Positions 50,822 to 53,623 of a stretch of 64,000 nucleotides of DNA are shown one piece after another (the stretch's first letter is position 1; each line of letters begins with the position of its first letter). The DNA is from Escherichia coli (GTDB lineage: Bacteria > Pseudomonadota > Gammaproteobacteria > Enterobacterales > Enterobacteriaceae). Position numbers and translations under genes: made by a program. The stretch is taken from NCBI RefSeq assembly GCF_003334815.1, contig NZ_QOWO01000019.1; one strand, written 5' to 3'. Under the pieces are notes generated by a model. That model worked only from the letters and a program-made list of their open reading frames with translations. It made no database searches and had not been told where the DNA came from.

Positions 50822-51595
50822 ATGTCCGAGAATAAATTAAACGTTATCGATTTGCACAAACGCTACGGCGAACATGAAGTGCTGAAAGGGGTATCACTGC
50901 AAGCGAATGCCGGAGATGTAATAAGCATCATCGGATCGTCGGGATCGGGGAAAAGTACCTTTCTGCGCTGCATTAACTTCCTCGAAAAACCGAGTGAAGG
51001 GTCGATCGTGGTCAATGGCCAGACGATCAATCTGGTGCGCGACAAAGACGGTCAACTCAAAGTCGCCGATAAAAATCAACTGCGCTTACTGCGCACACGC
51101 CTGACGATGGTATTCCAGCACTTCAATCTCTGGAGCCATATGACGGTGCTGGAAAACGTCATGGAAGCGCCGATTCAGGTGTTGGGCCTGAGCAAGCAGG
51201 AAGCGCGCGAGCGGGCGGTGAAGTATCTGGCAAAAGTCGGGATAGACGAACGTGCGCAGGGGAAATATCCGGTGCATCTTTCCGGCGGTCAGCAACAGCG
51301 TGTTTCTATCGCGCGGGCGCTGGCGATGGAACCGGAAGTTTTACTGTTTGATGAACCTACCTCGGCGCTCGATCCTGAACTGGTAGGCGAAGTGTTGCGT
51401 ATTATGCAGCAACTGGCAGAAGAGGGGAAAACCATGGTGGTAGTGACTCACGAAATGGGCTTTGCTCGCCATGTTTCTACTCATGTCATTTTCCTCCATC
51501 AGGGGAAAATAGAAGAAGAGGGCGCGCCGGAGCAGTTATTTGGCAACCCGCAAAGCCCTCGTCTGCAACGGTTCCTTAAGGGATCGCTGAAATAA
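50822..51595 (+). CDS. hisP: ABC transporter ATP-binding protein HisP
   Basis: 257-aa ORF with Walker [10 protein letters not shown], signature LSGGQQQR, Walker [12 protein letters not shown]. Confidence 0.95.
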
Positions 51596-51791
51596 TTTCC
51601 TCTCCGGTGGCTAACGCTGCCGGAGTATTTTCATGGGGAATTTGCGAGTCAGCTTCCGCTGAAATGTAAAAGTTACAGTCCGCTAAAAATACTTCTGAAT
51701 TCGCTGTCCAAAGATAAAAACTGCCTGCTGCATTGGGTGTTAATCGTGGTTATTGTCGCGTCATCTTAAATTTGAGGGGTGACGGAACGCC

Positions 51792-52682
51792 ATGACAATA
51801 TCGACAACTTCCACGCCGCATGATGCGGTATTTAAATCTTTTTTACGCCATCCAGACACCGCGCGGGATTTTATTGATATTCATCTTCCCGCGCCGCTGC
51901 GCAAACTGTGTGATTTAACGACGCTTAAACTGGAACCAAACAGTTTTATTGATGAAGACCTGCGGCAATATTATTCCGACCTCTTGTGGTCTGTGAAAAC
52001 GCAGGAGGGAGTGGGTTATATTTATGTAGTGATAGAGCACCAAAGTAAGCCGGAAGAATTAATGGCTTTTCGCATGATGCGTTATTCCATTGCGGCAATG
52101 CAAAACCATCTTGATGCGGGCTATAAAGAGCTTCCATTGGTGCTCCCGATGCTGTTTTATCATGGTTGCAGAAGTCCTTATCCTTATTCACTCTGCTGGC
52201 TTGATGAATTTGCCGAGCCTGCTATAGCCCGCAAAATATATTCATCGGCTTTTCCGTTGGTGGATATTACCGTGGTGCCGGATGACGAGATTATGCAACA
52301 CCGCAAAATGGCGCTGTTGGAGTTAATTCAGAAACATATTCGTCAGCGCGATCTGTTGGGATTAGTCGACCAAATTGTTTCGCTGCTAGTTACAGGGAAC
52401 ACTAATGACAGACAGCTAAAAGCCCTGTTTAATTACGTATTACAAACAGGGGATGCCCAGCGTTTTCGTGCATTTATTGGTGAGATAGCGGAACGCGCAC
52501 CACAAGAAAAGGAGAAACTGATGACCATTGCTGACAGATTACGTGAAGAAGGCGCAATGCAGGGCAAACACGAAGAAGCCCTGCGTATTGCTCAGGAGAT
52601 GCTGGATAGAGGTTTAGACAGAGAGTTAGTTATGATGGTGACCCGACTTTCACCAGACGATCTTATCGCGCAAAGCCACTAA
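51792..52682 (+). CDS. rpnB: Rpn family recombination-promoting nuclease RpnB (YfcI), transposase_31-like
   Basis: 296-aa [36 protein letters not shown]...YSDLLW...VIEHQS, the conserved N-terminus of the Rpn/YhgA-like family. Confidence 0.88.
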
Positions 52683-52729
52683 TCCTGTAACACCGGGAGT
52701 TAACTGGCGGATGTTTGCTGTAAACCACA

Positions 52730-53623
52730 TCAGCGAACGACATCCGCCAGCGCCTCTTCTAAATCGTACCAGCGAAACGCAAAACCCGCTTCTTCCAGCC
52801 GTTTAGGCAGCGCGCGTTGTCCACCTAATACCAGTACTGAAGATTCGCCCATTAACAGTCGAATGGCGGTCGCGGGGACGCGCAAAATGGCCGGGCGATG
52901 CAGCGCATGACCGAGCGCATGGGCAAATTGTTCATTGCGTACCGGGTAGGGCGAAACCATATTAAATGGCCCGCGCAGCTCGTTATCCAGCAGCCAGAGA
53001 ATACCGTTGACCATATCATCAATATGAATCCAGGCCAGATACTGCCGACCAGAGCCAATCGGCCCGCCCAGGCCAAGACGAAACGGCGGCAGCATTTTAC
53101 CGAGAATACCGCCATCCGGTGCCAGCACTACACCGGTACGCAGCAGGCACACTCGCGTTTTGTCACTTTGCGCCCGGCAGGCAATTTCTTCCCAGCGAGC
53201 GCAGAGTTTATGGGTAAATTCGTTATGCGGCGGTTCCTCTTCGGTAACCACCACTTCACCTAAGTCACCATAATAGCCCGTTGCCGAGCCGGAAATGAGT
53301 ACCGACGGTGGCGTGTCGCTGGCATTAATCAAATCGACCAGTTTTTGCGTGATATTCCAGCGGCTTTGGCAGAGACGCTCTTTTTGCTCGTGAGTCCAGC
53401 GTTTATCAGCAATCGGTTCTCCGGCCAGGTTGATTACCGCATCAACGCCGTTGAGGTTGCTTTGATCGGCAAGCCCTTGCCATAGTGTCACCCGAGGGCC
53501 GAGAACGGAACTGGCTTTCTGCGGGTTACGCGTCACTACCGTAATTTGATGGCCCAGCTCCAGCAAACGCGGAATCAAATGGCGACCAATTAATCCTGTC
53601 CCTCCGGTGATCACTATGTTCAT
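52730..53623 (-). CDS. yfcH: Epimerase-family protein YfcH (NAD-dependent, SDR fold with DUF1731)
   Basis: 297-aa ORF starting [16 protein letters not shown] (Rossmann GxxGxxG). Confidence 0.88.

What the first reader, a model, noticed from the sequence alone, without database searches (positions are those of the whole stretch)
51792..52682. rpnB (yfcI): domesticated transposase-like nuclease gene in a core-genome context
The ORF has the conserved N-terminal region of the Rpn/YhgA-like (transposase_31) family but lacks terminal inverted repeats, target-site duplications or a partner gene, so it is not a mobile element. It sits between the his transporter operon and convergent yfcH. The physiological role of this family is still poorly defined.
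Basis: partly seen in the sequence, partly recalled or inferred. Interest (0 to 1): 0.3.

Follow-up and report, generated by a model that had tools for sequence, protein, structure and literature searches.

The report
rpnB nuclease toxin with nested antitoxin
This is the already-characterised E. coli gene rpnB, a DNA-cutting toxin that carries its own antitoxin as a small protein started from inside the same reading frame; the sequence fits the published picture, so it is a known feature.

Summary
The ORF is real and lies exactly where stated: 51792-52682, + strand, 296 aa. It is 100% identical to E. coli K-12 rpnB (yfcI). It sits between hisQMP and the convergent yfcH.

Three parts of the interpretation do not hold:
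- "No partner gene". The partner is nested in frame. A perfect Shine-Dalgarno sequence (AAGGAG, 52509-52514) precedes ATG 52521 (M244). This gives the 53-aa RpnBS, the published antitoxin of the full-length nuclease RpnBL (Zhong et al. 2023).
- "Domesticated transposase". The N-terminal domain is a PD-(D/E)XK nuclease with all catalytic residues intact. Nothing indicates transposase ancestry.
- "Core genome". The flanks are core, but the 1002-bp rpnB segment is present in 4756 of 5426 complete E. coli genomes. In the other 670 it is replaced by 27 unrelated bases. Salmonella has nothing at this site.

Amino-acid variation and 4-residue length steps concentrate in the RpnBS region, as published.

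Verdict: already known, low interest. Whether chromosomal RpnB itself defends against phage is still unshown.

The parts
51792..52682 (+). rpnB (yfcI) full-length ORF, 296 aa = RpnBL, the toxic DNA endonuclease form
   Evidence: ORF. 100% identity to K-12 rpnB. PF04754 E 2.8e-90. TIGR01784 186.9 bits. Toxicity and SOS induction of RpnB are published (PMC5350276; PMC10400941).
51813..52418 (+). Transposase_31/YhgA-like domain (residues 8-209). Its first ~125 residues form the PD-(D/E)XK nuclease core. Catalytic residues: D11 (51822-51824), D63 (51978-51980), E82 (52035-52037), Q84 (52041-52043), R94 (52071-52073). The PDDE motif residue D165 is at 52284-52286.
52509..52514 (+). Internal Shine-Dalgarno sequence AAGGAG (codons K240-E241), 6 nt upstream of the internal start codon
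   Evidence: Read directly from the sequence. It is the only AAGGAG-N4-8-ATG in the whole 64-kb window on either strand. It is invariant at DNA level in 13 Escherichia alleles. The equivalent K240R+E241D+M244L mutations in rpnA abolish RpnAS.
52521..52682 (+). rpnBS: nested in-frame ORF of 53 aa (M244 to H296), the intragenic antitoxin. It is a three-helix HTH_Rpn_C domain.
   Evidence: The published stop mutant 'RpnBS D29' fits only a start at M244 (and counting from the translation). PDB 7th0 (RpnA-S, 49 aa) aligns to residues 244-295 by sequence (E 0.0026) and by fold (Foldseek probability 0.99, TM 0.78, 40% identity). Met is present at this column in 72 of 81 diverse homologues. PF27070 HTH_Rpn_C is recorded for close homologues. 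The start region is predicted unpaired.
52542..52577 (+). Four-residue repeat zone ([12 protein letters not shown], residues 251-262). Other alleles have a 12-nt (4-aa) insertion after nt 52556.
   Evidence: E. coli alleles come as 1002-bp and 1014-bp segments, giving 296 and 300 aa. In 71 of 81 family members the M244-to-I266 spacing differs from K-12 by a multiple of 4 residues, over a range of 14 to 54 residues. Alignment A2 places all length variation here. This matches PMC10400941 section 12.
51702..52703 (.). The 1002-bp segment that is present or absent among E. coli strains: rpnB plus 90 bp upstream and 21 bp downstream
   Evidence: Present in 4756 of 5426 complete genomes. Replaced by the 27-bp ATCTATATTTATTCATCAGCGTTTCCG in the other 670. 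No TSD or IR at the junctions. The filler occurs nowhere else in the window.
51602..51625 (+). Terminator-like hairpin with T-run just after hisP. It separates the his operon from rpnB and is kept in strains without rpnB.
   Evidence: Consensus scan. Conserved in the empty-site alignment.
52704..52750 (.). Perfect 11-nt inverted repeat (CTGGCGGATGT / ACATCCGCCAG, 25-nt spacer) spanning the yfcH stop codon. It lies outside the polymorphic segment and is present in both alleles.
   Evidence: I18. Searches show it retained in empty-site genomes. No T-run follows it, and its function was not tested.
52730..53623 (-). yfcH, the convergent neighbour (a core gene, not part of the system)
   Evidence: The yfcH-rpnB pair is listed among RNA-seq-based excludon candidates (PMC12288877).

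Best explanation
The locus is E. coli rpnB, one gene that makes two proteins.

The full-length product is RpnBL (296 aa). It is a PD-(D/E)XK DNA endonuclease that damages the cell's own DNA when unchecked.

A second product starts inside the same reading frame, from a strong ribosome-binding site (AAGGAG) and ATG at M244. It is probably made from its own internal transcript. This product, RpnBS (53 aa), is identical to the C-terminal three-helix domain of RpnBL. By pairing with that same domain in RpnBL, RpnBS blocks the nuclease, so it acts as the antitoxin.

Toxin tail and antitoxin are read from the same DNA. Any change in the tail therefore changes both partners together. This includes insertion or loss of 4-residue helix units and allelic replacement of helices 2-3. 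It allows fast diversification without breaking the pairing.

Shown experimentally for this gene: toxicity, SOS induction, synthesis of RpnBS, and specific neutralisation by RpnBS. Shown here: all the sequence features this mechanism needs, plus the expected pattern of variation.

Inferred only: that the physiological purpose of chromosomal RpnB is antiphage defence. That was demonstrated for the plasmid paralogue RpnP2.
For: - Identity: 100% to K-12 rpnB.
- Family: PF04754 and TIGR01784.
- Catalytic residues D11, D63, E82, Q84 and R94 are all present.
- Internal SD plus ATG at 52509-52523, the only such perfect site in the window. It is invariant in 13 Escherichia alleles, in the 20-codon window with the fewest synonymous changes (2 codons against 4-11 elsewhere).
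- Met244 is conserved in 72 of 81 homologues at 29-71% identity.
- The C-terminal 53 aa match the crystal structure of RpnA-S, 7th0.
- Length variation comes in multiples of 4 residues and begins 11 residues after M244.
- Codons 255-292 carry 16 codons with amino-acid changes against 17 with synonymous changes. Codons 1-236 carry 23 against 92.
- Published experiments on rpnB itself: the ribosome-profiling start signal, the SPA-tagged RpnBS band, stronger growth inhibition by RpnBL* than by RpnBLS, and RpnBS (but not RpnAS) blocking RpnB-dependent dinD-lacZ induction, an effect lost with a stop at D29 (PMC10400941).
- Earlier work: 98.7% killing of recA cells and a 19-fold rise in RecA-independent recombination on overexpression (PMC5350276).
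Against: - No sigma-70-like promoter could be found by consensus scanning, either upstream of the internal start or upstream of the gene. The internal transcript rests on published dRNA-seq only.
- The AAGGAG-ATG motif alone is not statistically unusual for 64 kb (1.8 expected).
- PADLOC 2.0 has no model that matches.
- The neighbourhood is housekeeping, not a defence island.
- Phage protection has been shown only for plasmid RpnP2, not for RpnB.
- 12% of E. coli genomes lack the gene, and some alleles are pseudogenes (stop at codon 66 in L009; IS1 and ISVsa5 insertions). The gene is therefore dispensable.
Confidence: 0.88

Rival explanations
1. rpnB is a recombination-promoting or horizontal-transfer factor. 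Its nuclease makes breaks that help incoming DNA integrate without RecA. This is the meaning of the original name and is closest to the first reader's 'domesticated transposase-like nuclease'.
For: Overexpressed RpnB raised RecA-independent recombination 19-fold in a conjugal assay (PMC5350276). The historical family names are 'putative transposase' (Pfam) and 'ISNCY family transposase' (a related NCBIfam model).
Against: Deleting rpnA-D did not change basal recombinant frequency. The effect needs overexpression, which also kills 98.7% of cells, so it may be a by-product of DNA damage. This reading does not explain the nested antitoxin or the diversifying C-terminus. The fold is PD-(D/E)XK, for which no autonomous transposase is known.
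Confidence: 0.07
2. rpnB is, or recently was, an insertion-sequence-like mobile element that moves by itself.
For: It shows presence/absence polymorphism as a single-gene unit. Family members occur on 4845 of 72,556 plasmids, mostly conjugative ones. Its closest non-Escherichia relatives sit at other loci.
Against: In 4756 genomes it lies on the chromosome, with at most 2 matching places per genome (median 1). It never lies on a true plasmid at 95% identity or more. In every locus examined it sits between hisP and yfcH, including five other Escherichia lineages. There are no terminal inverted repeats and no target duplication. The empty site carries 27 unrelated bases rather than a clean target.
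Confidence: 0.02
3. rpnB is a selfish addiction-type module with no benefit to the host. It persists only because losing the antitoxin is lethal, and it is slowly decaying.
For: Inactivation of the nuclease part recurs with the RpnBS part kept. Examples are a stop at codon 66 (L009), in-frame deletions (P0021, P0023), an N-terminally truncated ORF (P0108) and IS insertions. The gene is missing from 12% of genomes.
Against: Antitoxin and toxin are co-encoded, so the gene can be lost as a unit without post-segregational killing. The N-terminal domain is under clear purifying selection across six Escherichia lineages. The focused amino-acid diversification of the tail is more typical of conflict with an external agent.
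Confidence: 0.03

Closest known systems
E. coli K-12 RpnB (YfcI), as described by Kingston et al. 2017 (PMC5350276) and Zhong et al. 2023 (PMC10400941)
   Same: It is the same gene: 100% nucleotide identity, the same neighbours, and the same internal start at M244 that gives RpnBS.
   Different: Nothing in the gene itself differs. Elsewhere the window departs from my recollection of the K-12 map: tRNA-Arg(CCT) abuts dsdC.
RpnA (YhgA) and RpnA-S, PDB 7th0
   Same: Same architecture and the same numbering of key residues (D11, D63, E82, Q84, R94, K240, E241, M244). The C-terminal domain has the same three-helix fold at 40% identity.
   Different: RpnB scores below the RpnA equivalog cut-off (467 against 583 bits). 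The antitoxins do not cross-protect. RpnB is the more toxic paralogue.
Plasmid RpnP2 (ECOR13), the Rpn shown to protect against T-even phages
   Same: Same family and the same long/short two-product arrangement.
   Different: RpnP2 is plasmid-borne and its antiphage phenotype has been demonstrated. RpnB is chromosomal, sits among housekeeping genes, and has no demonstrated phage phenotype.
Classical type II toxin-antitoxin modules (two adjacent genes)
   Same: A protein antitoxin neutralises a protein toxin by direct binding, and specificity is cognate.
   Different: The antitoxin is not a separate gene. It is the toxin's own C-terminal domain, translated from an in-frame internal start, so the two partners cannot drift apart.
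Insertion sequences / ISNCY 'transposases'
   Same: Single-gene unit with patchy distribution. Historical annotation as a transposase.
   Different: No inverted repeats, no target duplication, one fixed chromosomal site, and a PD-(D/E)XK rather than a DDE/HUH/serine/tyrosine catalytic domain.

Membership tests
Rpn / YhgA-like family (Pfam PF04754, TIGR01784) | Significant match to the family profiles | tested here: met
   PF04754 residues 8-209, E 2.8e-90. TIGR01784 186.9 bits against a cut-off of 52.1.
Rpn / YhgA-like family (Pfam PF04754, TIGR01784) | Catalytic residues defined by RpnA mutagenesis (D11, D63, E82, Q84, R94) and the PDDE motif | tested here: met
   All are present at the same positions. 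D11 and D63 are invariant, and E82 is conserved in at least 90% of diverse homologues.
Rpn / YhgA-like family (Pfam PF04754, TIGR01784) | PD-(D/E)XK alpha-beta-beta-beta-alpha-beta nuclease fold | tested here: met
Rpn / YhgA-like family (Pfam PF04754, TIGR01784) | C-terminal HTH_Rpn_C / RpnS three-helix domain | tested here: met
   7th0 (RpnA-S) matches residues 244-295 by sequence and by fold (probability 0.99, TM 0.78). PF27070 HTH_Rpn_C is recorded for close homologues. The Pfam copy used did not report it.
RpnB orthologue (as opposed to RpnA/C/D/E) | Identity to K-12 RpnB and position between hisP and yfcH | tested here: met
   100% identity to WP_000156149.1 and the same synteny. The same position holds in five other Escherichia lineages. 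The closest Salmonella and Citrobacter homologues (64-71% identity) lie at other loci, next to feoABC-bioH, mgtC and a yjiS-like gene.
RpnA equivalog (NF007361) / 'ISNCY family transposase' equivalog (NF007418) | Score above the curated equivalog cut-off | tested here: not met
   467 and 459 bits against a cut-off of 583 for both. RpnB is a paralogue of these proteins, not a member.
RpnL-RpnS intragenic toxin-antitoxin | In-frame internal start codon with a ribosome-binding site ahead of the C-terminal domain | tested here: met
   AAGGAG 52509-52514, then 6 nt, then ATG 52521. Invariant in 13 alleles. Met conserved in 72 of 81 homologues.
RpnL-RpnS intragenic toxin-antitoxin | Length variation by four-residue units beginning 8-20 residues after the internal Met | tested here: met
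   The indel site is 11-12 residues after M244. E. coli alleles are 296 or 300 aa. The spacing differs by a multiple of 4 residues in 71 of 81 homologues.
RpnL-RpnS intragenic toxin-antitoxin | Internal promoter giving a short transcript | tested here: inconclusive
   Only weak hexamer matches (8 of 12) lie upstream of 52521. The paper cites dRNA-seq start sites within all rpn genes.
RpnL-RpnS intragenic toxin-antitoxin | The small protein is made and specifically neutralises the long protein | not testable with these tools
   Published for rpnB: SPA-tag immunoblot, growth curves, and the dinD-lacZ assay with a D29 stop control (PMC10400941).
Insertion sequence / autonomous transposon | Terminal inverted repeats and target-site duplication | tested here: not met
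   The empty site shows replacement by 27 unrelated bases, not a clean target.
Insertion sequence / autonomous transposon | Multiple copies or variable locations | tested here: not met
   A median of 1 place per genome, all on chromosomes, in 4756 genomes. The rare genomes with 2 places are probably genes split by IS insertions, although the one case opened (L010) was such a split.
Antiphage defence system | Recognised by a defence-system catalogue, or located in a defence island | tested here: not met
   No PADLOC 2.0 match. The neighbours are the his transporter, yfcH, folX and yfcG.
Antiphage defence system | Protection against phage infection | not testable with these tools
   Shown for plasmid RpnP2 only. 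It has not been reported for RpnB in the papers read.

The most novel reading that the evidence does not exclude
Within E. coli, rpnB tails may fall into a small number of discrete specificity types, reassorted by recombination. Two features define the types. One is the number of four-residue units: REEG-AMQG against REEG-RNDG-LILG. The other is a helix 2-3 cassette: [13 protein letters not shown] against M/LEKGFDHEVILTL. In addition, nuclease-dead alleles that keep an intact RpnBS ORF (stop at codon 66, in-frame deletions, IS insertions) may persist as orphan antitoxins. Such orphans could give immunity against incoming Rpn toxins or be targets of phage counter-defence. This would make the helix 2-3 cassette a second specificity determinant, beyond the published repeat number.
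Probability: 0.2. Interest if true: 0.4.

Novelty: already known. Interest (0 to 1): 0.15.

Why it matters
The gene illustrates that a 'one ORF, one product' annotation can hide a regulatory partner. Here the toxin's own tail is translated separately and acts as its antitoxin. For a genome scan the practical lesson is this: a lone PF04754 'transposase' with no repeats should be read as an Rpn toxin-antitoxin nuclease, and it should be checked for a conserved in-frame Met with a ribosome-binding site about 50-90 codons before the stop. For this locus nothing new is added to the mechanism. The open question is whether chromosomal RpnB protects against any phage. The population figures obtained here give a starting point for that test: 87.7% presence, two length classes, and at least two tail cassettes.

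Tried and rejected
(1) Terminal inverted repeats and target duplications. I ran a repeat search over 51200-53300 and a direct alignment of the two ends of the polymorphic segment against shuffles. Nothing exceeded chance.

Five ORFs of 40-81 aa overlap rpnB. That is no more than overlap hisP or yfcH, and none has support. The relevant nested ORF is in frame.

(3) Promoter consensus scans, for the internal transcript and for the gene's own promoter. No convincing site was found.

(4) PADLOC: no model matches.

(6) Polarity of the presence/absence polymorphism. The 27-bp filler of empty sites is found nowhere else in the window. It also has no counterpart in the Salmonella hisP-yfcH spacer, which is an unrelated 51 bp. 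Insertion versus deletion within E. coli is therefore unresolved. Conserved synteny across Escherichia species favours secondary loss.

(7) Supplementary files of the 2023 paper, for the exact internal transcription start: not held.

(8) Search for phage-encoded RpnS mimics. Only 11 of 50,697 phage records match, and most are full-length genes or bacterial contigs.

Full report
**Observation**

The window contains an ATG-initiated ORF of 296 codons at 51792..52682 on the + strand, exactly as reported. It matches Pfam PF04754 (Transposase_31, YhgA-like) over residues 8-209 with E 2.8e-90. It matches NCBIfam TIGR01784, 'Rpn family recombination-promoting nuclease/putative transposase', at 186.9 bits against a cut-off of 52.1. 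A megablast of 51400-53000 against 5426 complete E. coli genomes gives 100% identity to K-12 MG1655, where the gene is annotated rpnB (WP_000156149.1). There it has hisJQMP upstream on the same strand and yfcH, folX and yfcG downstream on the other strand.

**Mobile-element test**

A repeat search over 51200-53300 found no inverted or direct repeats that bracket the gene. A stronger test comes from nature. The segment 51702-52703 is present in 4756 of the 5426 genomes. A query made from an rpnB-less strain is matched end to end in exactly the remaining 670.

In these 'empty' genomes, 27 unrelated bases replace the 1002-bp segment. The segment comprises rpnB, 90 bp upstream and 21 bp downstream. 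The ends of the segment show no terminal inverted repeat: score 12 against a shuffle mean of 9.2, with 7.7% of shuffles as good. They show no direct repeat either, and there is no duplicated target.

All matching places are chromosomal, with a median of one per genome. In the plasmid collection, matches at 95% identity or more occur only in records that look like mislabelled or fragmentary chromosomes, judging by their size. The gene is therefore not an IS-like element, which agrees with the published survey (PMC10400941).

Zhong et al. [quoted passage not shown] The full-length protein (RpnL) is a toxic DNA endonuclease. A small protein (RpnS), translated from an in-frame internal start, is its antitoxin.

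For rpnB itself they report several results:
- a ribosome-profiling initiation signal;
- an SPA-tagged RpnBS band;
- stronger growth inhibition when the internal start is mutated;
- block of RpnB-dependent SOS induction by RpnBS but not by RpnAS;
- loss of that block with a stop codon at D29 of RpnBS.

In the window the internal start is unambiguous. AAGGAG lies at 52509-52514 (codons K240-E241), followed by six bases and then ATG at 52521 (M244). Counting from M244, residue 29 is Asp, which matches the published mutant. This is the only AAGGAG-N4-8-ATG on either strand of the 64-kb window. One such site is not unusual by chance, however: 1.8 are expected. The weight of the argument therefore lies in the other evidence:
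- The motif and ATG are invariant at DNA level in 13 Escherichia alleles. They lie in the 20-codon window with the fewest synonymous changes, 2 codons against 4-11 in the other full windows.
- Met occupies this column in 72 of 81 homologues that are only 29-71% identical to RpnB.
- The 49-residue crystal structure of RpnA-S (7th0) aligns to residues 244-295 by sequence. It also aligns to the AlphaFold2 model (Foldseek probability 0.99, TM 0.78, 40% identity).
- The start region is predicted to be unpaired.

**Nuclease domain**

The residues that Kingston et al. 2017 showed to be needed for RpnA activity are D11, D63, E82, Q84 and R94. All are present at the same positions in RpnB, as is the PDDE motif.

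**Variation**

Close relatives differ in length in steps of four residues: 296, 300, 304 and so on up to 320. All of that variation falls directly after [11 protein letters not shown], 11 residues past M244. In 71 of 81 diverse homologues the M244-to-I266 spacing differs from K-12 by a multiple of four, over a range of 14-54 residues.

Within E. coli there are two length classes. The 1002-bp segment encodes 296 aa and the 1014-bp segment 300 aa (REEG-AMQG against REEG-RNDG-LILG). There are also at least two versions of helices 2-3: [13 protein letters not shown] and M/LEKGFDHEVILTL. These features occur in different combinations.

Across 13 alleles, codons 255-292 have 16 codons with amino-acid changes against 17 with synonymous changes. 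Codons 1-236 have 23 against 92. This is the published picture of a conserved nuclease with a rapidly diversifying, self-matching tail.

**Context and history**

rpnB lies between hisP and yfcH in representative genomes labelled E. albertii and E. whittamii, and in three further Escherichia lineages. At the same site, Salmonella enterica has only a 51-bp spacer unrelated to the E. coli spacer. Klebsiella pneumoniae and K. aerogenes carry other genes there, a GNAT acetyltransferase plus small ORFs.

The closest non-Escherichia homologues (64-71% identity) lie at other loci. These loci are feoABC-bioH (from my knowledge of the K-12 map, the rpnA position), next to mgtC, and next to a yjiS-like gene (from my knowledge, the rpnD region).

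The flanks are therefore core, but rpnB is a genus-level acquisition at a variable spot, and it is accessory within E. coli (87.7% presence). I could not decide whether the 670 empty sites are ancestral or secondary. The 27-bp filler has no counterpart in the filled allele or in Salmonella. The wide synteny within the genus favours secondary loss.

Several alleles are inactivated in the nuclease part while the RpnBS ORF stays intact. Examples are a stop at codon 66 in strain 98202, in-frame deletions, an ORF starting at M91, and IS1 and ISVsa5 insertions. These cases are anecdotal and were not counted.

**Mechanism and confidence**

Shown by others for this gene: toxicity, DNA damage, synthesis of RpnBS, and cognate neutralisation. 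Shown here: every sequence feature the model requires, and the expected selection pattern.

Inferred: binding through the shared three-helix domain. This is by analogy with RpnA, where the complex and the crystal structure exist. Also inferred: a role in antiphage defence, which has been demonstrated only for plasmid RpnP2.

Several points count against a defence role for RpnB specifically. PADLOC has no match. The neighbours are housekeeping genes. The gene is dispensable in 12% of strains.

I put 0.88 on the toxin/intragenic-antitoxin description. For the phage-defence purpose of RpnB I put about even odds.

**Verdict**

This is a correct identification of a known gene, with an interpretation that is partly outdated. 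The novelty class is 'already known'. Interest is low (0.15). The residual interest lies in the unproven physiological role of RpnB and in the allele types of its tail.

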